A DNA stretch of 64,000 nt, from contig CAZYRN010000006.1 of NCBI GenBank assembly GCA_964650185.1, positions 168 through 64,167 of the forward strand. The letters are read 5' to 3'. Each line of letters opens with the position of its first letter. The first letter of the stretch is position 1. A program made the position numbers and the translations under genes. Origin of the DNA: an uncultured Pseudomonadales bacterium. Its GTDB lineage: Bacteria > Patescibacteriota > Microgenomatia > UBA1400 > PJMF01. The notes beneath the pieces were generated by a model, which ran no database searches, was not told the DNA's origin, and saw only the letters and a program-made list of their open reading frames with translations. Shown piece after piece: positions 252 to 48,504 of the stretch.

Positions 252-255
252 TTTA

Positions 256-15806: not shown

Positions 15807-15812
15807 AATTCC

Positions 15813-19081: not shown

Positions 19082-19082
19082 G

Positions 19083-19499: not shown

Positions 19500-19550
19500 A
19501 GTCAGGCAGCTAAACAATAAAATCTTGTTTTAATCAGTTATAATAGTGGT

Positions 19551-26640: not shown

Positions 26641-26676
26641 GTTGTAATTGTCAGTATTAGAGGCATTATTAGAGGA

Positions 26677-27693: not shown

Positions 27694-27715
27694 TTAACAG
27701 ATATTTAAGGGAAAT

Positions 27716-27973
27716 ATGTGGTCAATTTTTAGCAGGAAATCAACTGAAAAAAGTAGTCAATATCAAACTGCCACTTTTAAAATTATTGGCATGCACTGTA
27801 CGAGCTGTAGCATGAACATTGATGGTGAATTAGAGGATACCACTGGCGTGATTAGTGCCAGCACTAGCTATGCTAAGTCGGAAACTAAGGTCGTTTTTGA
27901 TCCGAAAAAAATTCAGCCTAAAAAAATCCAACAGGTGATTGGCAGTTTGAATTATGAAGTAGAGCTTGCTTAA
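27716..27973 (+). CDS. copZ: Copper chaperone CopZ-like HMA domain protein
   Basis: FKIIGMHCTSCSMNI is a GMxCxxC HMA motif. 85 aa. Confidence 0.75.
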   Translation: MWSIFSRKSTEKSSQYQTATFKIIGMHCTSCSMNIDGELEDTTGVISASTSYAKSETKVVFDPKKIQPKKIQQVIGSLNYEVELA

Positions 27974-28264
27974 GCAAGATACTGCAGTGACCCTAATGAT
28001 GAGTAGTGTTCATTTAATTCATGGAGAGTTTTCATCTCGTCTGCGCTAAGCTTGAAGTCAAAAATATCCAGGTTTTCTGCTTGATGGTCTTTTTGATTAG
28101 CCCTAGGAATTGGTACGGTGGCGAAGTGACCCGTAGGTGGAACCAGATTTACCCTTCATTATATAGAACATATCTTCGACTTAAAGAACTTGGATATACG
28201 TATAACAACGGCCAAGTAATTGCACCTTCTGTGATTAATAAAAAACCAAGAAAGGAGGTGTATT

Positions 28265-28777
28265 ATGTTTAATTTTGTAATGTCCAAACTTCAGCTTCCT
28301 ATTCTAATGTCTTTTCAAAGGCACTCGCCTGAGCTAGTTACATCAAAGCTTTATGACGAACTTACGTTTTACAAGCAATTTATAAAGGACCTGAAAGCTA
28401 GCAAACAGGAAGTGATCGTGGAAAGCCAGTTTATCAGCTCGACTCGAATGTATTCTTTGGCACCTTTGTTTCGTAACCTAGTGTCTAGAAAAGTTAAGTG
28501 TTATGTGATTACCCGAGATCCGGATGATCACGACATCACCATGAAGCAACAAGCCGAGAAAGAGATCCGCAAGTTTCAGACGATTGGTGTTCAGGTGATC
28601 TTGACTAACGAATACAGTCACCGGAAGCTGGCTATCATTGACCGCAAGGTCTTATGGGAAGGCAGCCTAAATATTTTGTCTCAGACTTGCAGTCAAGAAA
28701 TCATGCGCCGGATAGAAAGCAAAGAACAAGCACAAAAATGCTTTGATTTTGTGAGATTTGGAAAGTTTATTTACTAA
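28265..28777 (+). CDS. Small PLD-family (HKD) nuclease-like protein
   Basis: SHRKLAIIDRKVLWEGSLNILSQ is a single HxK(x)4D(x)6GSxN HKD motif, as in Nuc/BfiI-type nucleases. AGGAGG RBS. First gene of the AT-rich island. Confidence 0.55.
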   Translation: MFNFVMSKLQLPILMSFQRHSPELVTSKLYDELTFYKQFIKDLKASKQEVIVESQFISSTRMYSLAPLFRNLVSRKVKCYVITRDPDDHDITMKQQAEKEIRKFQTIGVQVILTNEYSHRKLAIIDRKVLWEGSLNILSQTCSQEIMRRIESKEQAQKCFDFVRFGKFIY

Positions 28778-28805
28778 AGGGGTAGTTTAGCTAAAAAATA
28801 AGGAT

Positions 28806-29015
28806 ATGGCTGGATATCAGATTAACGAAAAAGATATTGAGAGCGTGATTCGTTTTCTTAAAGTAACGGATCCGGAGAATGCTACTCCTGAGATGGCAAT
28901 AGAGCTATTGGAGCATCTTAAGGCTAGTTTCCATACCATGGCACACGAAGATCCAGAAAAACTGGAAGAAATCTATAAAGAGTTGAAAAAACAGAAAGAA
29001 TTAAAGACTAACTAG
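28806..29015 (+). CDS. Hypothetical small protein
   Basis: 69-aa acidic helical ORF with RBS-like AAGGAT upstream. Confidence 0.3.
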   Translation: MAGYQINEKDIESVIRFLKVTDPENATPEMAIELLEHLKASFHTMAHEDPEKLEEIYKELKKQKELKTN

Positions 29016-29254
29016 TACGGCAAGATATCAGAAGATTCTAGATCAAGAGCTTTGACTAGTTTTAGCAGTGTAATTACAGACAAACTAGCTTCCCCACGCT
29101 CAACCTTGGCATAGTAGTTTCCATTGATGCCTGCTTTTTTGGCTACATCTAGCTGAGTTAGATCTTTTTCTAACCGCGCAGCCTTTAGTTTGTCACCAAT
29201 GGCATTTAATATTTTTGTGTCTTTTTGCCTTTTCATCTTGGTATAGTATATCAC
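29012..29254 (-). CDS. XRE-family HTH regulator
   Basis: LTQLDVAKKAGINGNYYAKVERGEASLSVITLLKLVKAL is a Cro/C1 HTH. Divergent from the recombinase-proximal genes. Confidence 0.6.
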   Translation of the reverse strand: MIYYTKMKRQKDTKILNAIGDKLKAARLEKDLTQLDVAKKAGINGNYYAKVERGEASLSVITLLKLVKALDLESSDILPY

Positions 29255-29280
29255 TCGAGTGTATTATCCTTCTAATAGGA

Positions 29281-29529
29281 ATGAATAAATCTTCAAAAAC
29301 ACATACATCAGAAAGCACTTTTGATCTTGATTCAATAGATCGTTCCGAAAAACTTCAAAAGGCAAGGGAGATATTAGGTGAGTTGGCTAATGAGTATTCA
29401 GACGATGAACTATGGAAAATTGTAACTGAAATTCAATTCCTGACAGATTGTTGGCTGGATGAGTTTGAACGGGAAATTTTTGATGGAAAGACATTGACGG
29501 AACTACTGACCGAGGAGGTAGAATTTTAA
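29281..29529 (+). CDS. Hypothetical small acidic protein
   Basis: 82 aa. Directly precedes the recombinase with a 2-nt gap. Confidence 0.3.
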   Translation: MNKSSKTHTSESTFDLDSIDRSEKLQKAREILGELANEYSDDELWKIVTEIQFLTDCWLDEFEREIFDGKTLTELLTEEVEF

Positions 29530-29531
29530 AA

Positions 29532-30986
29532 ATGAAAAAAGCAATAGCTTACCTTCGGGTATCAACAGAAGAACAAGTTGATAATTTTTCTTTAGAAACG
29601 CAAGAAGAGATTTGCCGAAAAGAAGCTGAAAAACGCGATCTTAATTTAGTGAAGGTTTTTAGAGAAGAAGGTAAGTCTGCTAAAGACATCTCCGGCAGAC
29701 CAACCCTGCTTCAATTACTTGAATACTGTAGAAAGAATAAAACTATGATAGATGCCGTTATTGTCTACCGACTTGATAGGTTATCAAGACAAACTGCGGA
29801 TTACTTAGCAATACGAAAGAAACTGTCTGATTACAACATTACTTTATATTCTGCTACTGAACCTACCGGGGATAGTCCAACAGAAAAACTGGTGGAGACG
29901 ATCCTCGCCGGATTTGCTCAACTGGATAATGATATCCGGGCAGAACGAGCAAGAAATGGAATGAAAGCACGATTTCTAGCAGGCTACACCAACCAAAGAC
30001 CGCCATTAGGATATCTGATGGTAGATAAGGTAGTCGTAAAAGACCCAGATGCTTGGGATTTGGTGAAAGCTTCCTGGTATTTAATGGCAACCGGAACTAA
30101 AAGCCTCCGGGATATAGCAGACTACATGAATGGGTTGGGGTTGAGGTATAACGTGCGATCGAAAAACTACAAGATAAGGCCTCAAGCAGCCAACAGGATT
30201 TTCAGGCACAAATTTTATGCTGGCATACTAGCGTCAAAGACCTACGAGCTTGAAGTCAAAGGCAAACATCCTCCAATGATAACAATGGCTCAGTTTAATT
30301 TGGTCCAGGATATTTTGGATGGAAGAAGGACTAAACAACTACCGAAGATAAAAAGAATCAGAGACAACCCAGACTTTCCGTTAAGAAGGATCGTTAAATG
30401 CGGAAAGTGTGGTACTGGCTTAACCGGATCGTGGAGCACTGGAAGACGATCAAAATTCGCCTATTATCGCTGTGGCAAACCATGCAATCATAAATCTATC
30501 CGCAGACAAGATGTTCATGATGAGTTTATAAAAGCTTTAGGAGGTATAAAACCAAAACCTCAAACTGCTGAACTATTCGAGTTTCTAATGACACAAAGCT
30601 TTGAGAAAAGAAGACAAAAATTGCTAGAAAGAAAAAGAACAATAGATTTAGAAATTGAAAAAGCTAAGTCAGATAAGAAAAAGATTATCAAAAAACATTT
30701 AGAGGGGGTTTATTCGGATGAAATATATGAGGAGCAAATGGAAATAGTAGAGTTGAAGTTGCAAAAATTAGCAACACTCAATAATAATGAGTTATTAAGA
30801 GTCTATAAGCAGACAAAATTTAGCAAAATGTTAAACAGAAAATTACATTTACTTGACGAACTACTTACTAAACTAAGTTCAAGTCAGTTGAGAGCTTTAA
30901 TAAATTTAGTGTTCGATGGGAATTTAAATTGGAGTAGCAGAAATTTACTTGAATTTAAACCTAGAGGGATCTGGCAGCTAAATTAA
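29532..30986 (+). CDS. Large serine recombinase (resolvase/invertase N-domain, recombinase domain, zinc ribbon and coiled coil)
   Basis: AIAYLRVSTEEQ catalytic Ser motif. VYRLDRLSR. Recombinase domain. KCGKCGTGL...YYRCGKPC zinc ribbon. Coiled-coil C-terminus. Confidence 0.85.
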   Translation: MKKAIAYLRVSTEEQVDNFSLETQEEICRKEAEKRDLNLVKVFREEGKSAKDISGRPTLLQLLEYCRKNKTMIDAVIVYRLDRLSRQTADYLAIRKKLSDYNITLYSATEPTGDSPTEKLVETILAGFAQLDNDIRAERARNGMKARFLAGYTNQRPPLGYLMVDKVVVKDPDAWDLVKASWYLMATGTKSLRDIADYMNGLGLRYNVRSKNYKIRPQAANRIFRHKFYAGILASKTYELEVKGKHPPMITMAQFNLVQDILDGRRTKQLPKIKRIRDNPDFPLRRIVKCGKCGTGLTGSWSTGRRSKFAYYRCGKPCNHKSIRRQDVHDEFIKALGGIKPKPQTAELFEFLMTQSFEKRRQKLLERKRTIDLEIEKAKSDKKKIIKKHLEGVYSDEIYEEQMEIVELKLQKLATLNNNELLRVYKQTKFSKMLNRKLHLLDELLTKLSSSQLRALINLVFDGNLNWSSRNLLEFKPRGIWQLN

Positions 30987-31845
30987 AGTTTTGGATGACT
31001 GCGAGTATATCCTTTTTATTTTTTATAGTGGTAATTTCTCTTCCTGTTGTGCTCGAGAAGCTAGTAAGAGTCTTCAAGTTAATATGACACAAAGCAATAA
31101 CTTTCCATTTTGCAAAGCTTAATAATTTCTTATCCTTTATGAATATTTCCAATCGAATAAACAAAGCTTCATACGCCATTACAAGTGCAAATAGATAAAT
31201 AAATGGCAAGTACATTACTGTCAATACCGAAGGAATAACTAAAGTTAGTAAGTTATGTGCGGATAATGCTTCCGTAAGACTTCCTATAGCAGTAAGGATG
31301 GAGTAAGACAAAATAAATATCCCATATCCAGCAATTAGGACTTTAAGTGGTCTTCTAACAATCATATATTCATCTCTACTATCCGCTAAAGCACTCATCG
31401 CTATCACTAGAAACAGGAATGGCATGAGAACAAACTCAATAGCAAATGAAAATGAATATAGACCAGTTAAAAACTCTACTAATATGGTAATAGCAAATGT
31501 CTCCAATAAAATTTTTTTAAATAATGAAGGGTCTTGGCTTGCTTTGTTTGTGTTGAGAAATAGAACCGTAGCGGTTCCAAAAAACCAAAAAATAGTATCT
31601 TTAAGTAAAAATATATCCCAAATACCTGCCTGCCTTAGTACTAATACCGATAATACTGAGTAAGCAAGCATGGCTAAAAAAGGAATAAGTATTTTCGGGT
31701 TAAAAAATGTATTTGCTACATTAAATAAACTTGTGCGTGTTTTACTGTTAATTAGAATGAAGATTATTAATATGACAACCCATGCTGCTAATGCTTTCTC
31801 TCGACCATTCATGGCATTTATTATTTCTAGTGCTGCCCTTTTCAT
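30961..31845 (-). CDS. Polytopic (about 8 TM) membrane protein of unknown family, translationally coupled to the upstream 793-aa gene
   Basis: 294 aa, highly hydrophobic. Its start overlaps the stop of 31842..34223 by 4 nt (ATGA). Confidence 0.5.
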   Translation of the reverse strand: MKRAALEIINAMNGREKALAAWVVILIIFILINSKTRTSLFNVANTFFNPKILIPFLAMLAYSVLSVLVLRQAGIWDIFLLKDTIFWFFGTATVLFLNTNKASQDPSLFKKILLETFAITILVEFLTGLYSFSFAIEFVLMPFLFLVIAMSALADSRDEYMIVRRPLKVLIAGYGIFILSYSILTAIGSLTEALSAHNLLTLVIPSVLTVMYLPFIYLFALVMAYEALFIRLEIFIKDKKLLSFAKWKVIALCHINLKTLTSFSSTTGREITTIKNKKDILAVIQNFNLAARSL

Positions 31846-34223
31846 TTCTTTGGATTAGCCCCTTTAGTTTTCTTCCTGTTCTGATTTCTTTTTCGTTCGA
31901 ACTCTTCATGCCAAACTGTATCCCACCTTTTTATACCCAAATATTTTTGCTGAGTGGCCATAGCCAGTCCGTAAATTCCATAACTGTCTCTGTAAATTTT
32001 TTGTTCTTTTTCATTCCAACAATATGGAGGTGAGTGTAATGAAAATAACTCGTTTGCTGTTAAAATTAGAACTGGATTTACTGGTCTTTCTAACTTCCAA
32101 TGCTTATTTCCTACTCTCGTAATTTTCTTAATTTCTTGTATTTCAAACGGGGTGAGTTCTTCTCTTAAAGTTGAGAATACTAAAACTGCTCCGGGGAAGC
32201 TTTTTGCAATAGACTTCATACGGTTAAAATCTTTCTTTTTGAATTCGTTAAATGTTTTTGCCTCACCAAAAGCAACCCCATCTGCTATCTCTCCGAAGAC
32301 GGACTCGCGCCATAAGAAAGCAAAATCTGCTTCTAAATTCTTGCCAGTGCTTGTTTTAGTTGCATTAAACGAGTACACAGGAGTGGTTTGTATTGAGCTC
32401 ATCCTTCTTTCAGAAAAAAACTCAACAGAAAGCACTACACTGATAGCTCCTTCAGCGTAATTTGGGACACTAACTGGGCCGACAGTTTTATAAGACCAAT
32501 TACTTTCACTGAGGCTATCAATAGCATGAAAATCTTGCAAGCATTTAGTGCAATTTAATAAATTATGTAGATCTTCTAGATCGTACCAAGAATTTCTTTG
32601 GCAGTTAGGGCATTTAGCACTTACACCAAGAGAAAATAAGTTTAGCTCGATAAATTTTTCTAGTCTTTTTTCATCCCCAAATATTTCCTTCATTCGGCTC
32701 TTAATAAATGCTACAGTTTTGTCTCTACCTTCACCGTCTATGCTTACGGCCATTTCACCAATCAACTCAATAAGTTCTTTATTGGCTAACCCGTATGCCC
32801 AACCTTCTATCTGCTTATTCAATTCTTTAGCTAACTTTCCCGAGCTAGATAAACGAAAGTTCCAGCCATTATCCTTTAACCAAGCAGAAAAAACATTCTC
32901 TGCAAGGGGTAATTCCCAAGATATAGCTCTAGAAGAGTCAACTAGTCTTACCAATCCATTTTTTCCAATTCGCCAATCCTTAAATGTTCCAATACTACTA
33001 AGTGTTCTTTCTAAGCTTTCACCGTAAACTTTAGGAAATACTTCAGCGTATTTTTCAAGATCACCATATATGTTATAACTCACTTCATTAGATACAATGG
33101 GACTTCCAGTATATGAGGCTTTAATATGCTCTGGCATGCTTGCTGGTAAAAGTATCCTGTCATTTGCCTGTGTGAGATCAACTTCTTTTTCCGATTCGAA
33201 ATACACATCATGTGGGTCGACATGATCCTTACCCCGTGCCCACTCATCCCATATCCGAGGATATCCCTGGTGCAACAAGATAGGATTTGTTCCATCATCG
33301 TCTTTTTCCAAGTCTAGAGATGTGACAAAATCTCTTGCATCTTCCATTTTTTGACTAGTTGCGGGAATAATGTTTGCTCTGTACTTTATTGCAGGATTGT
33401 ATCTATTTGTCCAAAAACTTGCTTTAATAAAATCTTCAACTATCCCTTTAAAAAAATCATTATTAGTCATTGTTGTAGGAGCAGGTAGGACCGATCTTCC
33501 TGTAGCTCTAAGATTCCAATAATCCACTACATCTAGGAAGTCAGAAGGATCCAAATAAAATAATATATTTTCATTAGAAAACCCTCCTCTACTAATAGTG
33601 TCTAATTCATGCTGCATAATTCTTCTGGGAAAAAGTGTTCTGGGTTTTAGTATTTTCTTTAATGCTCTTGCCTTGGGCGTGGAAATATCTAAAGCTTCTT
33701 TATAGCCTGATTTCATTAAATCGTTGTAATACTTATCGGGCAATTTACCGAACCAACTTGCCCAAAATTCAGGATTTCTTGCTGGTATTTTTGGGAAGAC
33801 TACATTTATAGGATCTTTTTGGACAAATCTAAAGTATTCATGGTAGATCCAACTTAAGATATCGATAAACCCTATACCAAAAGAAAATGTATTTGGATTT
33901 TCTTTTGTAGGTAGAATCTTGTTTGACTTAACAACTCTTAATCCTAAATTCTTTATATAATCGGGCGGATCAAAGTCACAAACCAATATATCCGGGTCAT
34001 AAGCTTGAATATAACCAAGATTTATATCTCTCGCTGTTTTTCTAAAAGCATCTTTTCTCCATCTTTTAGTCTTTATTTGGTAAAGTGGAATTATAGGATT
34101 ATAAGGACCACCCCAAAGCACCGAATTTAGTTCAATAGCTTTTAGTAGTGCTTTCTTATCATTTGGTTTTATAAGAAAGGCAAACTTCAAAGGTCTACCT
34201 TTTACTTTTATATTGCCGATCAT
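31842..34223 (-). CDS. Large protein of unknown family with CxxC...CxxC zinc ribbon and C-terminal PD-(D/E)xK-like nuclease signature
   Basis: 793 aa. CPNCQRNSWYDLEDLHNLLNCTKC. ADFAFLW...IADGVAFGEAKTF parallels the hsdR nuclease core in this same window (VDYVLWG...LGLVEAKR). No P-loop. Confidence 0.55.
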   Translation of the reverse strand: MIGNIKVKGRPLKFAFLIKPNDKKALLKAIELNSVLWGGPYNPIIPLYQIKTKRWRKDAFRKTARDINLGYIQAYDPDILVCDFDPPDYIKNLGLRVVKSNKILPTKENPNTFSFGIGFIDILSWIYHEYFRFVQKDPINVVFPKIPARNPEFWASWFGKLPDKYYNDLMKSGYKEALDISTPKARALKKILKPRTLFPRRIMQHELDTISRGGFSNENILFYLDPSDFLDVVDYWNLRATGRSVLPAPTTMTNNDFFKGIVEDFIKASFWTNRYNPAIKYRANIIPATSQKMEDARDFVTSLDLEKDDDGTNPILLHQGYPRIWDEWARGKDHVDPHDVYFESEKEVDLTQANDRILLPASMPEHIKASYTGSPIVSNEVSYNIYGDLEKYAEVFPKVYGESLERTLSSIGTFKDWRIGKNGLVRLVDSSRAISWELPLAENVFSAWLKDNGWNFRLSSSGKLAKELNKQIEGWAYGLANKELIELIGEMAVSIDGEGRDKTVAFIKSRMKEIFGDEKRLEKFIELNLFSLGVSAKCPNCQRNSWYDLEDLHNLLNCTKCLQDFHAIDSLSESNWSYKTVGPVSVPNYAEGAISVVLSVEFFSERRMSSIQTTPVYSFNATKTSTGKNLEADFAFLWRESVFGEIADGVAFGEAKTFNEFKKKDFNRMKSIAKSFPGAVLVFSTLREELTPFEIQEIKKITRVGNKHWKLERPVNPVLILTANELFSLHSPPYCWNEKEQKIYRDSYGIYGLAMATQQKYLGIKRWDTVWHEEFERKRNQNRKKTKGANPKK

Positions 34224-34430
34224 GTTTTTGCTATATAAAAAAAGCCCAATTAAGGGCAGGCTTTCAAAAATTTATATTTTCCTTTCCCTGTCATTATACT
34301 TTATTTTCCCTTACTCCTTAAATCTTTCCCTGAGGTCTTTAACCTGACTTTAACCGCTTCAGATGTTAAAATTATGACTATAGAGATAGTAGTGTACTGC
34401 GTTGTATGAATTTCAATTAAAGGAAATAAT

Positions 34431-37000: not shown

Positions 37001-37008
37001 ATAACATT

Positions 37009-42200: not shown

Positions 42201-42659
42201 TCAATTATTCGAGAAAATGAATTTGTAACAGCGATTCAAAAAATTAGAAACAATGAAAAATTGGATGAAATGGATATTAAAGAGATAGAAGCTTTATTGA
42301 TAAACAGTTCATATGACATTGATAAAACAAAAATCGAGGAAATTCTTTCAGGACAGACATTAGGTGAATTTATTCGTGGACTGGTGGGGCTTGATAAAGA
42401 TGCTGCCAAAGCAGCCTTTGCAGAATTGATGCAAAAAAGAAATTTGAATGCAGCGCAGATGCAGTTTTTGGATAAAGTCATAGATCACATCGTAGCAACG
42501 GGCATTGTTAAGCCGGGCGATTTGTATGATCAACCATTCACCTTTTTAGATGACAGGGGTATTGATGGCGTATTTGAAGAAGCTGATAGAGATTATATAT
42601 TTGGAGTCTTAACTGGCATTAGGGCAAACGCACAGTTTGGGTTTGGAGGAATGGCATGA
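39264..42659 (+). CDS. hsdR: Type I R-M restriction subunit (helicase/endonuclease)
   Basis: PD-(D/E)xK core GYVDYVLWGDDGLPLGLVEAKR. Walker A MATGTGKT. DEAH-box IIIDEAHRS. Helicase C domain. ATGA overlaps on both sides. Confidence 0.9.
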   Translation: MKTNFTFLQKDWPQIYEEALQAEQHGFTAPRTSVFYARRTIELVINWLYLHDPDLQQPYETHLAALMHEPSFKKLLPYNLFHLINYIRKIGNQAVHSRKPISEKESLAALRNLYNFCEWMAKQYSQEQPEFPQYSESIIPRDGEQDKNAEELRQLQEQLDSKNQDFEQQKLLLVEYEEELKELRAQVKITKEKNIKTVSQKDYSEAETRELFIDLLLKEAGWDPQGENVAEYEVEGMPNNKGIGYVDYVLWGDDGLPLGLVEAKRTTHDAQKGQRQAELYADALERKYGQRPVIFYTNGYDHWIWEDDMYPPRPIQGFYTKDQLQTMINRRNARKSLLDAPVNDEIAGRYYQKLAIQHVLEQFEQKDRRSLIVMATGTGKTRVSIALVELLMKQGWIKNVLFLADRNALLTQAKAAFNDLYPEATTVDITKEKEETTSRIVFSTYPTMMNMIDEAKKDGVKRFGVGRFDLIIIDEAHRSVYQKYGAIFDYFDSLLIGLTATPKAEVDHNTYELFGLEDHNPTYSYELDQAVEDGFLVPPRQIEVPTKFLSEGLTYDELSDEEKEMYEMTFEDDEGQLPLMIAPSHFNDWVFNTDTIDSVLAYLMENGIKVEGGDRLGKTIIFAKNHKHAMFIQERFNKNYPYYGGRVLRVIDNYADYSHTLIDEFKQNKPDSPYIAVSVDMLDTGIDIPEIVNLVFFKITRSKAKFWQMIGRGTRLCPKLFGPESPEDDKKEFLIFDFCGNFEFFKVNPEGIKGTAQKSLSQLIFEKRVELAHELQSGTYTDNQALQELRTSLLNILHEDVSQMDPLSFNLRNHKRYIDEFSNRDRWNNLSKQDVIDINEHIAPFSNLVVDEDEFARRFDSLMLTLQVEMLKDNRKPTNSKRRVMTLAELLFEKANIPAVAEKISTINKVREDAFWENPSVEELEEVRRDLRDLIKLLDPPDRKAVYTNFTDTVYDPVSTGGSAIGDRPNRENYLKRVQSIIRENEFVTAIQKIRNNEKLDEMDIKEIEALLINSSYDIDKTKIEEILSGQTLGEFIRGLVGLDKDAAKAAFAELMQKRNLNAAQMQFLDKVIDHIVATGIVKPGDLYDQPFTFLDDRGIDGVFEEADRDYIFGVLTGIRANAQFGFGGMA

Positions 42660-43534
42660 GTATAAACGACAAAATTAAATATGAAGTAGCCCTCTCTTTT
42701 GCAGGTGAGCAACGCGACTACGTTAGAAAAGTTGCAGAAGTTTTAAAGGACAATAACGTCGATTGTTATTTTGATGAATTTGATGAAATAGAGTTATGGG
42801 GCAAGTATATGCCTGATCGCTTTCAAGAAGTTATGGGAGATAAGTCGAAGTACGCAGTAATATTTATTTCAGAAGAGTATAAAAATAAGTTTTATACAAA
42901 TTTAGAAAGAATGACATTGTTGACCTCTGATTTATTTAGAGAAGGTCGGTTACTTCCAGCAAAATTTGATGATACAAAGTTGCCTGGATTACCTGATGGT
43001 ATTAATTACGTGACTTTAAAAGATTTATCACCTGAAGAGTTTGCTAAAAAAATTATGCGGAAGATTGGTACCAAGACCAGTAAAGACGTAGTAGAAAATA
43101 AAGTGGCTGATTTTTATATACCAAAAACAAGAAAGTCTGTTAATCCAATTACACAACGGAAGGAATGGATTAAATATATTACTCAAGAGCTTAAAAGGCG
43201 TGCTGTAAAAGTCGATGGACTAGAGATGGACGATGATGATGAAGGATCACATCATAGAATATTGTTTCACTACAATGGAAAGACACTTGTCTCAATAAGA
43301 ATTATAAAAAACAGTATAGGGAATGATGGATTAGCTTTTGGGTTTGATTATGGCTATTCTTCTACTGGTGGCATGAACGCTTGGGGAGATTTTGATTGGA
43401 GTTTGGAGAAGGATGAGGAAATATTGAAAGTGCATGGAATGAGTTCCTTGGGAGATGGAGAATATACTAAAAAAGATTTAGTAGATGCACTGTGGAAAAA
43501 AATTACAAAGCACGTTGATGAGGAAAATACTTGA
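42656..43534 (+). CDS. TIR-domain protein (N-terminal TIR-like domain plus about 150-aa unknown C-terminal domain)
   Basis: KYEVALSFAGEQRDYVRKVAEVLKDNNVDCYFDEFDEIELWG...YAVIFISEEYKNKFYTNLE matches the bacterial TIR signature. Start overlaps the hsdR stop (ATGA). Confidence 0.55.
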   Translation: MSINDKIKYEVALSFAGEQRDYVRKVAEVLKDNNVDCYFDEFDEIELWGKYMPDRFQEVMGDKSKYAVIFISEEYKNKFYTNLERMTLLTSDLFREGRLLPAKFDDTKLPGLPDGINYVTLKDLSPEEFAKKIMRKIGTKTSKDVVENKVADFYIPKTRKSVNPITQRKEWIKYITQELKRRAVKVDGLEMDDDDEGSHHRILFHYNGKTLVSIRIIKNSIGNDGLAFGFDYGYSSTGGMNAWGDFDWSLEKDEEILKVHGMSSLGDGEYTKKDLVDALWKKITKHVDEENT

Positions 43535-44070
43535 TGAAAAGACAAATATTAGAAAAGCTTGATAACTCCCTGAGAAACTTTAAATCTGAAGCTGATGTGG
43601 TTTATATTTTGACGAGAATTGGAAAAATTCTAGAAATTGATGAAAAGAAACAAGATTATCCCGTTATTAACTTTTACCGTAATTGGTCCGTTCACAAACA
43701 AATTGACGATGTTGGCAATGTCAGACATTATTTAGAGGATTTCATTCATAACAAAGAGAATCGTGACAGCCTACTTTTTCATAAACCACTTTTTGAAGAA
43801 CTCAATTTATTTTCTAAAAATTACTCAGTGTCAAATTTAAGCGGGGAACAAGCAGCTGATTTTGCCTATCTATTAGGAAAAGTGATTTCAGATACTCCAG
43901 TTTTTATAAAATTTGATAGAACACATTACGAAATTTCAATTAGCGAACCAGTCAGTCGTGATCAAAGTGGAACTTACAAAATAAGCGTAAAAGTGAACGT
44001 TGAGCCTGTAAAAATGAAAATTACAACACCTCCCGTAGAGGCTAAGTATGAAGAAAAAGTGTCGAATTAA
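43534..44070 (+). CDS. Hypothetical 178-aa protein coupled to the TIR gene
   Basis: ATG overlaps the TIR stop by 1 nt (TGATG). No recognisable motif and no TM. Confidence 0.4.
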   Translation: MKRQILEKLDNSLRNFKSEADVVYILTRIGKILEIDEKKQDYPVINFYRNWSVHKQIDDVGNVRHYLEDFIHNKENRDSLLFHKPLFEELNLFSKNYSVSNLSGEQAADFAYLLGKVISDTPVFIKFDRTHYEISISEPVSRDQSGTYKISVKVNVEPVKMKITTPPVEAKYEEKVSN

Positions 44071-46295
44071 GATTTAGGGAATACGCCCTCAAACCACATT
44101 ATCGCTGCCTCCCCTTCTTTTTTGGTGATCTCATCTACGCTTCTACTGTGTCTTATACTGTTTCTAAGTTCAGATAATTGTGTAAATTTGTTATTAAGCA
44201 TCTCTTTATTGTTAAATACACTTGAAAATCTTTCCCATAAAGCATTGTTTGTGATAGTGTCTTGTAGATCTCTAAGGTCGAAGAATTCTAGTTTCCCTTT
44301 AAGTTTATTGTAGTACTTCTCATCTAAAGCAGGATTTCGTTTAGCTGACTTTGCCACTCTGTCATTAACTTTATCTTTAATGTGTTGTGGAATATCATCC
44401 TCTTTTTCATCCAGTGTAACTGAGATTAAACTTCTTAGTTGAAGCTCAACCTGCTCTATCTTCTCATCAAGTTCTCTTAGCGCTGGTGAAAGGTCAAGAC
44501 GTTCCTTGATCAGTAAATTTTCTATTGCTTCTTGAATGGTTCGTTGCCTTTCGGCAATAAATTCTTCAAAGTCATCCGGTGTAAAAGGATCGCGCATCAA
44601 TATTTCCTGAGCTTTAGGAGAAATAAAATGTGATTCTAGAATTCCTCTAACAGTACTTTCCCCGTTTGATTCGATTAGTTCAGGTAAATATTCGTTGGGC
44701 AGTCTGTCGTTAATGACTTTTCTATTGGTATCTGAAGTTAACGGTGTTCTATTGAGGATAGTATGTATCTTGCTGTCCCCCAAATGCTTCGATCCCCAAG
44801 AAGAAGGTACAATATGATGGTCATCCAGATCGCCATGTTGCGGAATATTCCCTGTCATCCAGTCTCTTGCTCCTTGAAGCACTAATAAATTAAACACACC
44901 ATTATAAATAGATGAACCTCTCTTTACTTCCTTTTTAAGATCTAGATTCCTAAATCTGGTCTTAAATTCAAGTATTAATGCCGGTTCAAGTGAATCATCT
45001 TCCATCCATGCTTTTACATCAAGAAAATCTCTGGCAGTAGTTGATTCGACTGAACCAGAATATCGATTGGTAAACACAGATGCCCAGTACCAATGTCGGA
45101 TTTTCCTTTGTGCATCAAGCTGCTTGTTGGACGATAAAGTCTTTACATGAGCTTGAAGCGAGGCGAATGCAGGTAATATCGAGATATAAGGCAAATAATC
45201 AGAAGAGGTCACACCAAACTCTTGTGGGTGGCTAATCAATTTTATAGCGTGTTCAAGAGCTGAGACTGCGTTGTTCCAGCTAGATTCAAATTCATCGGGA
45301 TTTTGCACTAAAATTTCTTTGCGACGGGTTCCATCCGGCTCGCGGATCGGTTTTTCTTGTCCAGGTAGCAAATAGTACAAATATTTAGGCGAACAATATG
45401 CTTGCTTTAAAATTGACATTACTTGAAGAATATATACATTCATTTTCTCTGTATTCACAAATTCTAGCTTGGAGGAGGCTTCGCGCCACATGTGCTTTAG
45501 TTGTAAGCCTTTAGGTTTTAAGAGAGCGTTTATAAGGTCAAAAATATCTAGTCGGACACCCTTGCTGTTTATTTGAGTGAAGATATCGCAAACTTTGTCG
45601 ATAGCCAGATCCTGATCTAGTTCAATATATGAAATTTGGTACTGCTCAGTTATTTCTTTAAGATGTTCACCAAATACGTGTGCATTTTGAGCATGAGTTA
45701 GAGCTAGTTTTTGTTCTTCTTCATTGTCATTAATAGATTCTGCTTTTTCTTTCCAATATTGTTCGTACTCTTGAACCCAATTTGGTAATTCCCAGCCTCC
45801 TTGGCCAATAATAGCCAGTGGAAAAATATGCTCTTTAAATTGAATCGTTCGATCACGCATTAATTTTGACCAACGCCTAGTAAGCCACTCATAACTAAAG
45901 GCATCGTCGAATTCATCGTTCATAAACTTATCTATTCGAACAAAGTAGTAGCATCTGCTTGACCGACTCGGCAGGGGAAGATCGGGAGCTAAAAATGCGT
46001 AATAGATTGCTGTTAAGCGTTGCTGACCATCTAGAACTATGTATTCGCGGTTTTCAGGTCCGGAATAACCATAAATATCCTCACAGGATAAGGCTTCAAA
46101 GTTTTCTTTTTTTCCCTTCCAGAGGAGTAAGCTGCCAATGTAATAATCTAGAAAAATGGAGCGCATGAGACTCTGTATATCCCAAGGTTTCCATTCAAAT
46201 TCACGTTGGAAATCCGGAATCACAAAACGACCTTCTTTTAGCCTATGAACGAGAGTATTTAGACTGACGTGATCTGGTTTTTGTGCATTTTTCAT
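44067..46295 (-). CDS. GmrSD-like type IV restriction enzyme family protein (DUF262 + DUF1524) with C-terminal HEPN-like (Rx4H) extension
   Basis: DUF262: DFQREFEWK...VLDGQQRLTAIY. DUF1524 His-Me finger: DDHHIVPSSW...NRTPLTSDTNRKVINDRLP. C-terminal ELRNSIRHSRS is an Rx4HxxS/HEPN-type motif. Confidence 0.7.
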   Translation of the reverse strand: MKNAQKPDHVSLNTLVHRLKEGRFVIPDFQREFEWKPWDIQSLMRSIFLDYYIGSLLLWKGKKENFEALSCEDIYGYSGPENREYIVLDGQQRLTAIYYAFLAPDLPLPSRSSRCYYFVRIDKFMNDEFDDAFSYEWLTRRWSKLMRDRTIQFKEHIFPLAIIGQGGWELPNWVQEYEQYWKEKAESINDNEEEQKLALTHAQNAHVFGEHLKEITEQYQISYIELDQDLAIDKVCDIFTQINSKGVRLDIFDLINALLKPKGLQLKHMWREASSKLEFVNTEKMNVYILQVMSILKQAYCSPKYLYYLLPGQEKPIREPDGTRRKEILVQNPDEFESSWNNAVSALEHAIKLISHPQEFGVTSSDYLPYISILPAFASLQAHVKTLSSNKQLDAQRKIRHWYWASVFTNRYSGSVESTTARDFLDVKAWMEDDSLEPALILEFKTRFRNLDLKKEVKRGSSIYNGVFNLLVLQGARDWMTGNIPQHGDLDDHHIVPSSWGSKHLGDSKIHTILNRTPLTSDTNRKVINDRLPNEYLPELIESNGESTVRGILESHFISPKAQEILMRDPFTPDDFEEFIAERQRTIQEAIENLLIKERLDLSPALRELDEKIEQVELQLRSLISVTLDEKEDDIPQHIKDKVNDRVAKSAKRNPALDEKYYNKLKGKLEFFDLRDLQDTITNNALWERFSSVFNNKEMLNNKFTQLSELRNSIRHSRSVDEITKKEGEAAIMWFEGVFPKS

Positions 46296-46325
46296 AATTG
46301 TCCTGATTATACCAAGAAAAACATC

Positions 46326-46739
46326 TTATAGGTTATTATTTATCAATTCATCAATTTTTTCACTGCTGGCTAGGTCTGTGGTTCGTAGTTCTATAAAATT
46401 GAAATTATTCTCAGTCAAAGCTTTTCTAACAAACTCATCCCGCGCTTTTCTTGATTTCCATGAGTGGGTTGAGTCGTTAAGTTCAATTATCAGTCTAGGG
46501 TTCATATCTTTATCGAAAATCACAAAATCTACAAAAAGTTTATTAAGCCAATCAAACTTTCCGGCTAAATCGTTTGTGTCATCTTTTACCTCAAGTATGG
46601 TTGATAAATGAAGCTGAGGGAAAACAAAGTAATCTTTCAATGCTTCATTGTTCTCTAGAATACTAAATAGCTTCAGTTCATTCCCAGTCAGAAAACGCTG
46701 TTTTCTTTTGAATGGATTTAGCTTTCCTTGTAAGAACAT
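46326..46739 (-). CDS. DUF2726-domain protein (restriction-endonuclease-like fold)
   Basis: VDFVIFDKDMNPRLIIELNDSTH...KARDEFVRKAL matches the DUF2726 core (D...E-L-D/N...K). Confidence 0.5.
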   Translation of the reverse strand: MFLQGKLNPFKRKQRFLTGNELKLFSILENNEALKDYFVFPQLHLSTILEVKDDTNDLAGKFDWLNKLFVDFVIFDKDMNPRLIIELNDSTHSWKSRKARDEFVRKALTENNFNFIELRTTDLASSEKIDELINNNL

Positions 46740-46802
46740 GACCCGCTCCCCTTATAGTTGTCACTAATTGTAATAAAATTAGTTTACTAGAAAGGAGCAA
46801 GC

Positions 46803-47060
46803 ATGGCAGGAATTTCCAATGAAATTAAAACTGAGGTTATTGCTAAAGTTAAAACTGGTCAAAAAGTTTCAGAATTATCCAAACAATATGGGGTCAGTGA
46901 CAAAACAATTTATAATTGGCTGCGAGGTCAGGTGACCGAGCAAGTTAGTTACCGAGAATATAAACGGGTGATGAAGGAGAATGAGGATTTAAAAAAAATC
47001 CTAGGAGTACTAACACTCGAGTTAGAGAAATCAAAAAAAAAGACGTACCGAAACAGCTAA
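46803..47060 (+). CDS. IS3-family transposase OrfA (HTH)
   Basis: MAGISNEIKTEVIAKVKTGQKVSELSKQYGVSDKTIYNWL is an IS3/IS911-type HTH. Leucine-zipper-like tail. Confidence 0.7.
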   Translation: MAGISNEIKTEVIAKVKTGQKVSELSKQYGVSDKTIYNWLRGQVTEQVSYREYKRVMKENEDLKKILGVLTLELEKSKKKTYRNS

Positions 47061-47910
47061 GCAAGTTAGTCATCTTCACCCTGAGTTAACTAAAAAGTTT
47101 GTAGCAGAGATGCTTGGCATTTCTAGACAGTGGCTGTACAAAATAGATTTTCTTCAGAACAGTAAAGATGAACTGTTAAAAGAGAAAATATTGTTTGTGT
47201 GGAGTTCTCACCCAAGTAAAGCCAGTTATGGCTATCGCCGACTTGCCATTGAGCTTGGAGTTGGTAAAAAACGAATTCGCCGCTGTATGAAGAAATATGG
47301 CTTAAAGCCATACAAAAGAAAATCCAGGTGGAGAAAAAGACGAGATGAAAGGAGAAAACCAGCACCATTTTCTAACCAGATTAAAAACCAGTTTCCGATT
47401 GTGCCAAACCACACTTGGGTGGGAGATTTTACATATTTACCATTCAAATGAAAATTTCTCTATTTAGCCACCTTCCTAGATTTATTTACCAGAGAGGTTG
47501 TGGGCTGGCATATTTACACAACTCACACAAAAAATCTGGTGATGCAGGCTTTTCTTGATGGACTGGTTAACCGTAATTTTCAGAAGCCAACCTACATCCA
47601 CTCTGACCAAGGAGTTGAATATACCTCCCAAGATTACACCAAACTAATCCAGGATTTTGGTATTCAAATATCTATGAGCTCCAAAGCTTCTCCTTGGGAA
47701 AATGGTTACCAAGAAAGTTTTTATAACAACTTTAAAACTGACCTTGGCTTAGAGTTTGACCGCTTCCAAGATGAAGGACATTTACTAGAAGCCATTCACC
47801 ACACACTTCACGACTACAACCACACCAGAATTCATTCCATATTAAAAATGCCTCCTTCCAGATTCCACGCCGAGTATTTACACTCCGTGTCTACGAAAAG
47901 GGGTGCTTGA
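47032..47910 (+). pseudogene. IS3-family transposase OrfB (integrase core), inactivated by nonsense codon; +1 relative to orfA
   Basis: WVGDFTYLPFK-[TGA]-KFLYLATFLDLFTREVVGW then HSDQGVEYTS...SSKASPWENG...DYNHTRIHS is the rve DDE core with a premature stop. The frame is reached from the orfA frame at the A9 tract, +1 rather than the usual -1. Confidence 0.6.
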
Positions 47911-47964
47911 CACATTTCTAGATTAATAAATCCTGCTGGTGAAATAAGGATAAGGGTTAATGGG

Positions 47965-48474
47965 ATGCAGAAAAAGTTGGGAAGCATTATAGACTTGAAT
48001 AAAACACAAAGAGAGTTGGCAAATATTGGTTTTCAGGTTTTAACCAAAATGAGTTGGTTATCTGTTGAGGATCTCAGTCCAAATGACAAAAAAATGCTGG
48101 AGGAAGAATACAGTCCCGCTCTGAAAAGTGCTACTTTTTCTATGATACCGGGAAGAGCTACAGAAATATATCAACTGACAATGACGTTGATGAAGGGTGC
48201 TAAAAGTTTGGGGCAGGTAAATCTTATTCCTGTTGTTATACGTGCAGATCAAAAAAAACTACCAGAAGAGCCAGAGTTGTTGATGCTCTTTAATGGCAAC
48301 GTTTATCAGTTAGATGAGGTCATGATGGCAGTCAGGGAATACCTACAGACTGAGGGAATAGCATTGGCCAACTTAAAGCCGGAAACAGAAGCACCAGATG
48401 AACTGATTATCAATGATCCTATAGGGATAAATCCTACTGGAGAAACTATGGTCTATATTGGAGAAACAACCTGA
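47965..48474 (+). CDS. Hypothetical protein
   Basis: 169-aa ORF. No assignable motif. Confidence 0.35.
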   Translation: MQKKLGSIIDLNKTQRELANIGFQVLTKMSWLSVEDLSPNDKKMLEEEYSPALKSATFSMIPGRATEIYQLTMTLMKGAKSLGQVNLIPVVIRADQKKLPEEPELLMLFNGNVYQLDEVMMAVREYLQTEGIALANLKPETEAPDELIINDPIGINPTGETMVYIGETT

Positions 48475-48504
48475 TTAGTTTTTGATGTGACTTCATAAGA
48501 TTAA

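What the first reader, a model, noticed from the sequence alone, without database searches (positions are those of the whole stretch)
28000..48500. AT-rich ~20 kb defence/mobile island between the copper operon and the CotH-VTC cluster
Spot base counts give about 37% GC inside (for example 31021-31080) against about 53% in the housekeeping flank (10381-10440). The gene content switches completely here. It holds a PLD nuclease, XRE, an intact large serine recombinase, an unknown two-gene module, an expanded type I R-M operon with a TIR gene, a GmrSD-like enzyme, DUF2726 and a dead IS3. This is the signature of a horizontally acquired defence island, probably mobilised by the serine recombinase.
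Basis: partly seen in the sequence, partly recalled or inferred. Interest (0 to 1): 0.7.

Follow-up and report, generated by a model that had tools for sequence, protein, structure and literature searches.

The report
Serine-recombinase defence island, now stranded
This is a real 19.8-kb piece of foreign DNA full of anti-virus genes, inserted into a sugar-reductase gene of a probable ultra-small (Patescibacteria) bacterium by a mobile element that also occurs almost unchanged in a distant relative; it is a good example of a familiar kind of island.

Summary
Window 28119-47912 (19.8 kb, 36.8% GC against 43% outside) is absent as a block from five contigs that are 98-99.8% identical in both flanks. 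Those contigs instead carry 836 bp holding an intact aldo-keto reductase gene and the start of a 203-aa gene.

The same island lies at another locus, beside tRNA-Gln, in a host whose copper-operon proteins are only 44-57% identical. Most of its proteins there are 91-100% identical to the window's (p82 82%, HsdS 42%). This indicates recent horizontal transfer.

The left end (TGGCGAAGTGACCCGTAGGTGGAAC) starts at the same nucleotide in six unrelated flanks. It always sits 1.4 kb upstream of the only shared recombinase, an intact large serine recombinase. That gene belongs to a conserved backbone under purifying selection (small ORF, PLD, p69, XRE, p82, recombinase).

In the window the right end is replaced by a dead IS3 with no target duplication. 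The island's right attachment site and adjoining host DNA appear to have been deleted, so the island is probably immobile now.

The cargo is a type I R-M with an extra methyltransferase and a TIR pair, a GmrSD-like enzyme, DUF2726, and an unannotated nuclease family with a weak Can2-like fold match. This is a known kind of element and a new member of it.

The parts
27970..28118 (-). 3' remnant (last ~49 codons) of the host aldo-keto reductase gene. It is the left arm of the chromosomal target site.
   Evidence: It translates to TVPIPRANQ...LQYLA*, identical to the C-terminus of the 268-aa AKR of empty-site contig L001. Homology to L001, L002 and L004-L006 runs up to about 28120-28128.
28119..47912 (.). 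The island as it now stands: 19,794 bp, 36.8% GC.
   Evidence: It is absent from five contigs whose flanks are 98-99.8% identical. It replaces 836 bp of the empty site. GC and GC3 are lower than in the flanks.
28119..28160 (+). Left terminus of the element (TGGCGAAGTGACCCGTAGGTGGAAC...). It is the candidate recombinase half-site, with TG as the candidate crossover dinucleotide.
   Evidence: Homology with L079, L080, L025/L087, L085 and L086 starts at exactly this base, and the left flanks are unrelated (20-30% identity). The first 26 nt are 85-100% identical; further in, identity is 42-75%, apart from the near-identical L079 copy. The empty site reads ...ACGG TG CCTAACTG.
28120..28272 (+). Small conserved ORF that begins at the element edge (GEVTRRWNQIYPSLY..., 50 aa). 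In L025 and L086 it is preceded by ATGGC, which supplies a start codon.
   Evidence: tblastn gives 58-76% identity in L025, L085 and L086. There is no Pfam match. Whether it is a real gene or only reflects the conserved site is open.
28280..28777 (+). Single-HKD PLD-family nuclease, a backbone gene.
   Evidence: PLDc_2, E = 8.5e-13. There are weak PADLOC hits to MkoC and DrmC. It is conserved in L079, L080, L025 and L086. dN/dS against L079 is 0.07.
28806..29015 (+). p69, a backbone gene of unknown function.
   Evidence: Conserved at 66-96% in L079, L025, L086 and L069. dN/dS is 0.02.
29012..29236 (-). XRE-family HTH regulator, a backbone gene.
   Evidence: HTH_3, E = 2.1e-13. dN/dS is 0.02.
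29281..29529 (+). p82, a small acidic protein that ends 2 nt before the recombinase start. It is a candidate accessory or directionality factor.
   Evidence: A homologue lies directly upstream of the recombinase in about 50 of 54 related loci. There is no Pfam match. The proposed role is inference.
29532..30986 (+). Large serine recombinase, 484 aa, intact.
   Evidence: Resolvase 8e-34, Recombinase 8e-10, Zn_ribbon_recom 4e-9. The YLRVSTEEQ catalytic motif aligns to solved serine recombinases. dN/dS against L079 is 0.05.
30961..31845 (-). 294-aa predicted membrane protein, unknown function.
   Evidence: No Pfam or PADLOC match. It is 100% identical in L079. It is absent next to the 793-aa homologues in L093 and L095.
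31842..34223 (-). 793-aa protein of a large unannotated family: N-terminal alpha/beta domains, a Cys4 zinc ribbon and a PD-(D/E)xK nuclease. It is a candidate stand-alone defence nuclease.
34431..37000 (+). hsdM (34431-35903) and hsdS (35900-37000) of a type I R-M system.
   Evidence: HsdM_N + N6_Mtase, E = 1e-73. Methylase_S matches twice. HsdS is the variable gene between island copies (42% aa identity, against 96% for HsdM).
37009..39267 (+). Extra 752-aa protein: a gamma-type N6-adenine methyltransferase, one target-recognition-like domain and a 290-aa C-terminal region of unknown function. It is inserted between hsdS and hsdR.
   Evidence: N6_Mtase, E = 9e-28. Weak Methylase_S and Specificity_I matches cover residues 320-457. 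The closest PDB relatives are type I M subunits. It is absent from island variant L012.
39264..42659 (+). hsdR, 1131 aa, with an N-terminal DUF4145.
   Evidence: PADLOC REase_I, E = 3e-192. Pfam finds ResIII, HSDR_N, EcoEI_R_C and DUF4145.
42656..44070 (+). TIR-domain protein (42656-43534) and p178 (43534-44070). Their start and stop codons overlap with hsdR and with each other. They are a candidate abortive-infection pair.
   Evidence: TIR_2, E = 1e-12. PADLOC PDC-S66, E = 2e-10. The TIR domain resembles the AbTIR NADase, E = 2e-4. The TIR protein is 100% identical in all variants. p178 matches nothing.
44067..46295 (-). GmrSD-like (DUF262) enzyme, 742 aa, with a DHHIVP His-Me-like motif and a C-terminal RNSIRH (HEPN-like) motif.
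   Evidence: GmrSD_N, E = 7e-32. BrxU (7p9k), E = 4.5e-9. PADLOC hits HEC-05, PDC-M55C and PDC-M34B. The DUF1524 profile is not detected. Both motifs were read by eye.
46326..46739 (-). DUF2726 protein, the last gene of the island.
   Evidence: PF10881, E = 4e-14. In L017 its start codon lies 41 nt from the 3' end of tRNA-Gln.
46739..47912 (+). Degenerate IS3-family element that forms the present right junction.
   Evidence: orfA has HTH_Tnp_1; orfB has HTH_21 + rve. orfB carries an in-frame stop and does not overlap orfA. The inverted repeats are TGACCCGCTCCCCTTATAGTTGTCAC and TGTCAAGCACCCCTTTTCGTAGACAC. There is no flanking duplication. Homology to L017 stops at 46741 and homology to the empty site resumes at 47913.
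47965..48474 (+). Host gene (203 aa in relatives) that has lost its first 34 codons. It is not part of the island.
   Evidence: It is collinear with and near-identical to residues 35-203 of the L001 protein.

Best explanation
Window 28119-47912 is an integrative genomic island of a family that circulates among Patescibacteria (CPR bacteria).

Structure. The family has a conserved 2.9-kb backbone: terminal site, small ORF, PLD nuclease, p69, XRE regulator, p82, and a large serine recombinase. This copy also carries about 16 kb of exchangeable anti-phage cargo:
- a 793-aa zinc-ribbon/PD-(D/E)xK nuclease
- a type I R-M operon that also holds a second methyltransferase and a TIR + p178 pair
- a GmrSD-like type IV enzyme
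- DUF2726

Proposed history.
1. The recombinase joined the circularised element to a loosely defined chromosomal site with a TG core. In this genome that site lies inside the 3' third of an aldo-keto reductase gene. (Shown: the exact left junction, the empty site, and the same left end in six flanks. Inferred: that the recombinase did it, and that TG is the crossover.)
2. An IS3 element landed just upstream of DUF2726.
3. An IS-associated deletion then removed the last ~40 bp of the island, including its right attachment site, together with 836 bp of host DNA. (Shown: the IS3 ends abut the two breakpoints without a target duplication. Inferred: the order of events.)

Consequence. With only one attachment site left, the island can probably no longer be excised. 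It now serves as a fixed multi-layer defence locus. The layers are restriction of unmodified DNA, restriction of modified DNA, and probably NAD-depleting abortive infection.
For: Island and empty site.
- The GC drop is significant, and so is the GC3 drop.
- L001, L002, L004, L005 and L006 come from five samples and have 98-99.8% identical flanks. All read HMA - intact AKR - intact 203-aa gene - DUF4956. Their homology to the window stops at 28120-28128 and resumes at 47913.

The same island elsewhere.
- L079 and L017 come from sample DRR835037. They carry it between a 258-aa gene next to GH130 and the 3' end of tRNA-Gln.
- Most island proteins there are 91-100% identical to the window's (p82 82%, HsdS 42%). 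That host's copper-operon proteins are only 44-57% identical to the window's.

Left end.
- It falls at the identical nucleotide in six contexts with unrelated flanks.
- The first 26 nt are 85-100% conserved, against 42-75% further in for the more diverged copies.

Recombinase.
- All three domains and the catalytic motif are present.
- dN/dS is 0.05.
- No other recombinase is shared by the variants.
- About 50%-identical relatives abut the 3' end of a tRNA gene in 35 of 41 informative loci. The family is therefore demonstrably integrative.

IS3.
- Both inverted repeats are present, there is no target duplication, and the transposase ORF is broken.

Cargo.
Against: - The right attachment site cannot be examined in the window.
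- In L017 the right end (...AAAGACCAAGA TG GTTGCC...) shares only TG with the left end. It shows no dyad symmetry with it.
- No excised circle or attP junction was found in the collections that could be scanned.
- In the wider family the recombinase gene lies at the very edge of the element. Here 16 kb of cargo lie beyond it, which is unexplained.
- The targets are unrelated to one another: the AKR gene, the tRNA-Gln region, and several intergenic sites. That is unusual for the majority of large serine recombinases, though 'multi-targeting' ones are known (PMC10083194).
- The hosts are known only from MAG labels of related loci.
Confidence: 0.72

Rival explanations
1. The island is a cassette of a chromosomal defence hotspot. 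It is exchanged by homologous recombination in the conserved flanks after DNA uptake, and the serine recombinase is merely cargo.
For: The interval between tRNA-Gln/MgsA and the 258-aa gene holds three unrelated defence islands in related genomes (L079+L017, L090/91, L095-98), and all abut the same tRNA nucleotide. The island copies are mosaics: window versus L079 is 100% identical in mem294 but only 88.6% in PLD. That shows frequent homologous exchange of modules.
Against: Flank-mediated exchange cannot place the same element end, to the nucleotide, next to six unrelated flanks. It also cannot place the island inside an AKR gene that has no homology to the tRNA-Gln locus. The backbone genes are under purifying selection.
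Confidence: 0.15
2. The block was brought in or moved by the IS3 element, through composite or one-ended transposition or IS-mediated rearrangement, rather than by the serine recombinase.
For: IS3 forms the right junction exactly (47912/47913) and lacks a target duplication, so it did take part in a rearrangement.
Against: There is only one IS3 copy, at one end, and its transposase is broken. The copies of the island in L079/L017 have no IS3, nor do the relatives L080 and L025. The left junction has no IS end; it carries the conserved island terminus.
Confidence: 0.04
3. The segment is ancestral and the 'empty' relatives have lost it, so the polymorphism reflects deletion rather than insertion.
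For: Presence/absence alone does not give a direction.
Against: The empty allele carries an intact AKR gene and an intact 203-aa gene, and both are truncated in the window. The island has foreign composition. It also occurs nearly identical in a host with 44-57% identical copper-operon proteins.
Confidence: 0.02
4. The segment is a degraded prophage, phage satellite or integrative conjugative element.
For: It has an XRE regulator and an integrase-type recombinase. One distant relative of the recombinase (L050) sits next to a T4SS coupling protein and a VirB4/TraG-like ATPase.
Against: The island has no capsid, terminase, portal, replication, relaxase or T4SS gene. IMG/VR holds no close relative of the recombinase or of GmrSD.
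Confidence: 0.05

Closest known systems
Multi-targeting large-serine-recombinase elements: Tn4451/Tn5397 with TnpX/TndX (own knowledge) and the 'multi-targeting' LSR class of Durrant et al. 2022 (PMC10083194)
   Same: A large serine recombinase has the Resolvase, Recombinase and zinc-ribbon domains. The element end is defined to the base. Closely related recombinases are found at unrelated target sites. Only a short core is shared between the element end and the target.
   Different: - Pfam finds no DUF4368 domain, which marks most of the multi-targeting clade (PMC10083194).
- The candidate core is TG, not GA or TT.
- The recombinase is always preceded by a conserved small gene (p82).
- The cargo is anti-phage defence, not antibiotic resistance.
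- The hosts are Patescibacteria.
- Recombination has not been demonstrated.
SCCmec-type cassettes moved by CcrAB/CcrC serine recombinases (own knowledge; a related island is described in PMC10581047)
   Same: Both are non-conjugative, non-phage chromosomal cassettes. Each combines a conserved recombinase module with variable cargo regions, and evolves as a mosaic by module exchange.
   Different: SCC integrates at a single site in rlmH and is flanked by direct repeats. This island uses several sites, and no terminal repeats are detectable.
Vibrio cholerae VPI-2 type I R-M cluster with the embedded GmrSD-like TgvAB system (PMC11411939)
   Same: In both, a type I R-M operon is interrupted or extended by extra defence genes on a genomic island. 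Both combine restriction of unmodified DNA with a GmrSD-family enzyme aimed at modified DNA.
   Different: The embedded genes here are a second methyltransferase with its own recognition domain and a TIR + p178 pair coupled to the end of hsdR. The GmrSD-like gene is single, lies outside the operon, and is convergent with it.
tRNA-adjacent defence hotspots and islands of enterobacteria (PMC10121019)
   Same: A fixed chromosomal position next to a tRNA gene is occupied by different defence islands in different strains.
   Different: The enterobacterial islands are mostly carried by tyrosine-integrase elements. Here the recombinases are large serine recombinases whose reading frame runs into the tRNA gene.
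Can2/Card1/Cdn1 CARF-nucleases of type III CRISPR (for the 793-aa protein only)
   Different: - There is no sequence similarity.
- The protein is twice as long and has a Cys4 zinc ribbon.
- It is not linked to CRISPR.
- Ligand binding is untested.

Membership tests
Horizontally acquired genomic island | Base composition and codon usage differ from the surrounding chromosome | tested here: met
   GC is 36.8% inside and 43.1% outside (p = 1.7e-14). GC3 is 0.32 against 0.42 (p = 1.2e-4).
Horizontally acquired genomic island | Present or absent as a block among close relatives, with an intact empty site | tested here: met
   Five contigs with 98-99.8% identical flanks lack 28119-47912 and carry intact AKR and 203-aa genes.
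Horizontally acquired genomic island | The same block occurs in a different genomic context or host | tested here: met
   L079 and L017 lie at the tRNA-Gln locus. Most island proteins are 91-100% identical (p82 82%, HsdS 42%), while host copper-operon proteins are 44-57% identical.
Large-serine-recombinase integrative element | Recombinase has the catalytic Ser domain, the recombinase domain and the zinc ribbon, and is intact | tested here: met
   Pfam finds all three domains. The YLRVSTEEQ motif aligns to 3guv and TP901-1. dN/dS is 0.05.
Large-serine-recombinase integrative element | A discrete element end is conserved next to unrelated flanks | tested here: met
   The left end begins at the same base in six contexts. 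The first 26 nt are 85-100% identical and the flanks 20-30%.
Large-serine-recombinase integrative element | A second attachment site has the same 2-bp core, and its arms are related to the first | tested here: inconclusive
   The site is deleted in the window (IS3 junction). In L017 a TG precedes the tRNA-Gln end, but no arm symmetry is detectable.
Large-serine-recombinase integrative element | An excised circular form (attP junction), or demonstrated recombination | not testable with these tools
   Scans for the end motif in viral and JGI contigs returned only integrated copies. Raw reads cannot be searched here.
Type I restriction-modification system | HsdM, HsdS with two recognition domains, and HsdR all present and full length | tested here: met
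   (REase_I, E = 3e-192).
GmrSD family type IV restriction enzyme | N-terminal DUF262 (ParB-like NTPase) domain | tested here: met
   GmrSD_N, E = 7e-32. BrxU 7p9k, E = 4.5e-9.
GmrSD family type IV restriction enzyme | C-terminal DUF1524 His-Me finger nuclease domain | tested here: inconclusive
   No Pfam DUF1524 hit, even at E = 5 on the C-terminal half. A DHHIVP...N...N motif is visible by eye only.
Thoeris (TIR-based defence) | ThsB-type TIR protein together with a ThsA (SIR2 or Macro/SLOG) effector | tested here: not met
   The ThsB model matches only at E = 0.0098. The island has no SIR2, Macro or SLOG protein. The pair is not filed as Thoeris.
IS3-family insertion sequence | orfA (HTH) plus orfB (DDE/rve), and TG...CA inverted repeats | tested here: met
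IS3-family insertion sequence | Intact transposase with overlapping frames, and a 3-4-bp target duplication | tested here: not met
   orfB has an in-frame stop, orfA and orfB do not overlap, and there is no duplication. The element is dead and sits at a rearranged junction.
Prophage or integrative conjugative element | Virion or packaging genes, or relaxase and T4SS genes | tested here: not met
   None found among the island ORFs. There are no IMG/VR relatives.
CARF-nuclease (Can2/Card1) - for the 793-aa protein | PD-(D/E)xK nuclease domain with conserved catalytic residues | tested here: met
   E631, D633, E654 and K656 are invariant. Fold matches to REase domains and Can2.
CARF-nuclease (Can2/Card1) - for the 793-aa protein | CARF domain that binds cyclic oligoadenylate, and linkage to type III CRISPR | tested here: inconclusive

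The most novel reading that the evidence does not exclude
The backbone (terminal site, small ORF, PLD, p69, XRE, p82, serine recombinase) defines an undescribed family of defence-cargo shuttles in Patescibacteria. It would derive from tRNA-3'-end-targeting serine recombinase elements but be able to enter non-tRNA pseudo-sites. It would move near-identical immune gene sets between hosts as distant as different orders. Its cargo would include at least two untested immune modules:
- a widespread 800-aa sensor-plus-nuclease protein with a Can2-like layout, and
- a TIR + p178 pair translationally coupled to hsdR, acting as a back-up suicide arm of a type I R-M system.

The defined 26-nt end plus the recombinase (and p82) would also be a ready-made integration tool for these hard-to-engineer bacteria.
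Probability: 0.35. Interest if true: 0.65.

Novelty: new member of a known kind. Interest (0 to 1): 0.45.

Why it matters
Patescibacteria have tiny genomes, few recognised mobile elements and almost no genetic tools. Surveys nevertheless report a high density of defence systems in them (PMC12259885).

This locus gives a concrete, nucleotide-resolved example of how such bacteria gain immunity. A recombinase-borne island making up perhaps about 2% of such a genome (assuming a typical ~1 Mb) is shared almost unchanged between distant hosts and is then fixed in place by an IS-mediated deletion.

It also provides testable parts:
- a candidate attachment half-site and its recombinase
- an unannotated nuclease family with more than 600 members
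- a TIR pair wired into a type I R-M operon

As a category, a genomic defence island on an integrative element is well known.

Tried and rejected
1. Terminal repeats. No direct or inverted repeats link the two present edges. Only short AT-rich chance matches turned up.
2. Right arm by symmetry. I searched the window, L017, L025, L080 and others for an inverted copy of the left-end 16-30-mer. None was found.
3. Small left-end ORF as a displaced C-terminal tail of the recombinase. blastp gave E = 0.13. An nhmmer profile of 35 recombinase 3' ends gave no hit at the left end. The window recombinase already contains the equivalent region. Rejected.
4. Left end as a decayed tRNA 3' half. By eye it matches 13 of 26 positions of a tRNA-Gly. 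The Rfam tRNA model and a profile of 37 tRNA 3' halves give nothing, although that profile does find the real tRNA-Asn. Not supported.
5. The GATTAGCCCGTTATATCAAT motif upstream of the tRNAs in the wider family, as an attachment arm. It is simply the coding 3' end of those recombinases, and it is absent from the window subfamily.
6. IMG/VR scans for the end motif, the recombinase and GmrSD. No close relatives.
7. Exact look-up of the 338-aa DsbD_2 flank protein. Not on record.
8. Foldseek against AFDB50. The library was unavailable.
9. Naming the window's organism. The Patescibacteria assignment rests on the relatives of the recombinase and of the copper operon and is an inference.
10. IS3 as the mobiliser, and deletion in relatives rather than insertion here. 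Both rejected; see the rival explanations.

Full report
**Observation.** A 1-kb profile shows a trough of 33-39% GC from about 28 to 48.5 kb, in a window that otherwise runs at 40-52%. The island is 36.8% GC, against 43.8% to the left and 41.8% to the right. In 500-bp windows the difference is significant at p = 1.7e-14. GC3 of island genes is 0.32, against 0.42 in flank genes (p = 1.2e-4). The left flank holds DnaG, TrxB, GdhA, RpoD and tRNA-Asn, followed by a copper operon (YHS-type regulator, P-type ATPase, DsbD_2/cupredoxin, HMA). The right flank holds DUF4956, CotH and VTC.

**Exact limits and the empty site.** An exact look-up of the DUF4956 protein returned contigs from several samples. 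Five of them (L001, L002, L004, L005, L006) are 98-99.8% identical to the window on both sides but lack the island. Their homology stops at window 28120-28128 and resumes at 47913. Between those points they have 836 bp that the window lacks. Those 836 bp hold the first three-quarters of a 268-aa aldo-keto reductase gene, an intergenic region, and the first 17 codons of a 203-aa gene. The window keeps only the last ~49 AKR codons (27970-28118, minus strand) and an N-terminally shortened 169-aa version of the 203-aa gene. The insertion is therefore the derived state. It destroyed one host gene and truncated another. Contigs from four further samples show the window's island-bearing arrangement.

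**The same island elsewhere.** Look-ups of the TIR protein and of a 96%-identical recombinase gave L079 and L017, both from sample DRR835037.
- Together they carry the whole block from window 28119 to 46741 at 91-99% nucleotide identity.
- There it lies between a 258-aa gene next to a GH130 gene and the exact 3' end of tRNA-Gln(CTG), beside MgsA.
- That flank is 97% identical to Microgenomates MAGs (L090, L091). Their copper-operon proteins are only 44-57% identical to the window's.
- Most island proteins are 91-100% identical between the two copies. The exceptions are p82 (82%) and HsdS (42%); a swapped recognition domain in HsdS is usual for type I systems.
- The flanks there are 45-47% GC and the island 36%.

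This pattern means recent horizontal transfer between distant hosts.

**A nucleotide-exact element end.** Homology between the window and five other contexts begins at the same base, window 28119: TGGCGAAGTGACCCGTAGGTGGAAC.
- The contexts are L079; L080/81 (recombinase 76% identical); L025 = L087 = L088 (a Saccharibacteria MAG, 64%); and two JGI contigs, L085 and L086.
- The 20 nt to the left are unrelated (20-30% identity).
- The first 26 nt of the element are 85-100% identical. Further in, the more diverged copies fall to 42-75%.
- The empty site reads ...GGTACGG TG CCTAACTG.... TG is thus the only sequence shared contiguously with the element end, and it is the candidate crossover dinucleotide.
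- Position -2 is G in all six flanks.

This is what a recombinase half-site looks like. It cannot be produced by flank-mediated homologous exchange.

**The recombinase and its family.** The only recombinase common to all variants is the 484-aa large serine recombinase.
- It has all three Pfam domains and the YLRVSTEEQ motif.
- It sits 1.4 kb from the left end, behind a conserved block: small ORF, PLD, p69, XRE, p82.
- Between the window and L079 these genes differ by dS of 0.27-0.59, with dN/dS of 0.02-0.07 (0.33 for p82). They are therefore maintained by selection.
- A scan of one genome per species found 54 loci, nearly all in Patescibacteria MAGs. A p82 homologue lies directly upstream of the recombinase in about 50 of them.
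- In 35 of 41 informative loci, a convergent tRNA gene (Leu, Gly, Glu or Ser) begins 33-106 nt after the recombinase match. The recombinase reading frame runs into the tRNA.

The wider family is thus a tRNA-3'-end-targeting integrase family. The window subfamily (483-492 aa) lacks the adjacent tRNA and carries its cargo beyond the recombinase. In L017, however, the far end again abuts a tRNA 3' end.

**The right end and IS3.**
- In the window, homology to L017 stops 2 nt past the DUF2726 start codon (46741).
- What follows is an IS3-family element with recognisable imperfect inverted repeats (TGACCCGCTCCCC... and ...GGGGTGCTTGACA).
- Its last base, 47912, is exactly where homology to the empty site resumes.
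- There is no target duplication. orfB has an in-frame stop, and orfA and orfB do not overlap.

The simplest reading has two steps. IS3 inserted into the ~40 bp between DUF2726 and the island end. An IS-associated adjacent deletion then removed the right attachment site and 836 bp of host DNA. The order of events is inferred. With one attachment site missing, excision by the recombinase should no longer be possible.

**Cargo.**
- *The 294-aa membrane protein.* It is not a conserved partner of the 793-aa protein.
- *The type I R-M.* It is complete. A 752-aa methyltransferase with one recognition-like domain is inserted before hsdR, and it is missing from variant L012.
- *The TIR + p178 pair.* A TIR protein and p178 follow hsdR with overlapping stop and start codons. 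The TIR domain resembles the AbTIR NADase, and the best PADLOC hit is the candidate PDC-S66. Thoeris is excluded because there is no ThsA. The full-length architecture is rare, with about 30 clusters among 1.84 billion representatives.
- *The GmrSD-like enzyme.* It has a clear DUF262 domain but no detectable DUF1524 profile.
- *Related islands.* They carry other defence sets behind the same backbone. L088 has SIR2, HpaII R-M with Vsr, and a reverse transcriptase. L080 has a different type I R-M with a Shedu-like SduA_C gene.

**Comparison with what is known.** The element works like the multi-targeting large-serine-recombinase elements (PMC10083194) and like SCC-type cassettes. It differs from them in lacking DUF4368, in its TG core and in its p82 partner. 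A type I R-M extended by other defence genes, together with a GmrSD enzyme, parallels VPI-2 of Vibrio cholerae (PMC11411939). The tRNA-Gln locus, which holds three different islands, is a classic defence hotspot (compare PMC10121019). Five full-text searches found no description of such recombinase islands in Patescibacteria. The library is incomplete, so this is weak evidence of novelty.

**Verdict.** It is a new, well-resolved member of a known kind of element. Interest is moderate. It rests mainly on three things: the host group, the inter-host transfer, and the untested cargo and recombination site.

Noticed in passing
L026-L075 (loci fetched with the recombinase; not in the window): In 35 of 41 informative loci, a convergent tRNA gene (Leu, Gly, Glu or Ser) starts 33-106 nt after a ~50%-identical serine recombinase, and the recombinase ORF reads into the tRNA. 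Nine more contigs end within 100 nt of the recombinase. A p82-like ORF precedes the recombinase in about 50 of 54 loci.
   Followed up: partly
L079 1-2760 and L017 5063-7624; L090/L091 about 1-9600; L095-L098: The interval between tRNA-Gln(CTG)/MgsA and a 258-aa gene next to GH130 holds three unrelated defence islands in related Microgenomates-like genomes. All three abut the same tRNA nucleotide. The L095 junction on the other side keeps the first six bases (TGGCGA) of the island's left end, although it has no recombinase backbone.
   Followed up: partly
L037, L045, L049, L052, L056, L072, L075, L088, L090, and window 23745-27973: Copper-resistance genes (P-type ATPase, DsbD_2/cupredoxin, HMA) lie within 10 kb of the recombinase in at least nine other loci. 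Either this neighbourhood is a recurrent variable region, or the metal operon travels with such islands.
   Followed up: no
window 31842-34223 (-): The 793-aa protein belongs to a family of more than 600 full-length homologues of about 810 aa in diverse phyla. The family has no Pfam model and no annotation. It has an invariant Cys4 set and E..D...ExK residues, and a Can2/Card1-like fold match.
   Followed up: yes
window 42656-43534 and L012-L020: The TIR protein is 100% identical in island variants whose neighbouring HsdR differs by up to 2.3% and whose recombinases are only about 40% identical over the stretch seen in L012. The defence modules are therefore exchanged between islands with different backbones.
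   Followed up: partly
window 28119-31845 versus L079 2755-6481: Identity between the two island copies is a mosaic. The left-end 153 nt are 99.3% identical, PLD 88.6%, the recombinase 92.4% and the membrane-protein gene 100%. This indicates recombination among island variants.
   Followed up: partly
L050 3600-13600 (MAG DBS2-1.bin48): A relative of the recombinase is followed directly by the PLD gene, a circular permutation of the window's order. It lies next to a T4SS coupling protein, a VirB4/TraG-like ATPase, an M23 peptidase and a SMODS cyclase. It may be a conjugative relative, or an unintegrated configuration.
   Followed up: partly
window about 54914-54927 versus L001 2535-4277: Empty-site contig L001 carries about 1.7 kb (two hypothetical genes) that the window and L002 lack. 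This is a second small presence/absence polymorphism in the same population.
   Followed up: no
window 13000-20000: The stretch after tRNA-Asn (12912-12986) is also rather AT-rich (38-43% GC). It encodes hypothetical proteins and two adjacent DUF2975 proteins. It may be another variable region.
   Followed up: no
window 46736-46760: The IS3 left inverted repeat replaces the native upstream region of DUF2726 and places a GGGGAG sequence 8 nt before its ATG. Expression of DUF2726 and the GmrSD-like gene may now depend on the IS.
   Followed up: no
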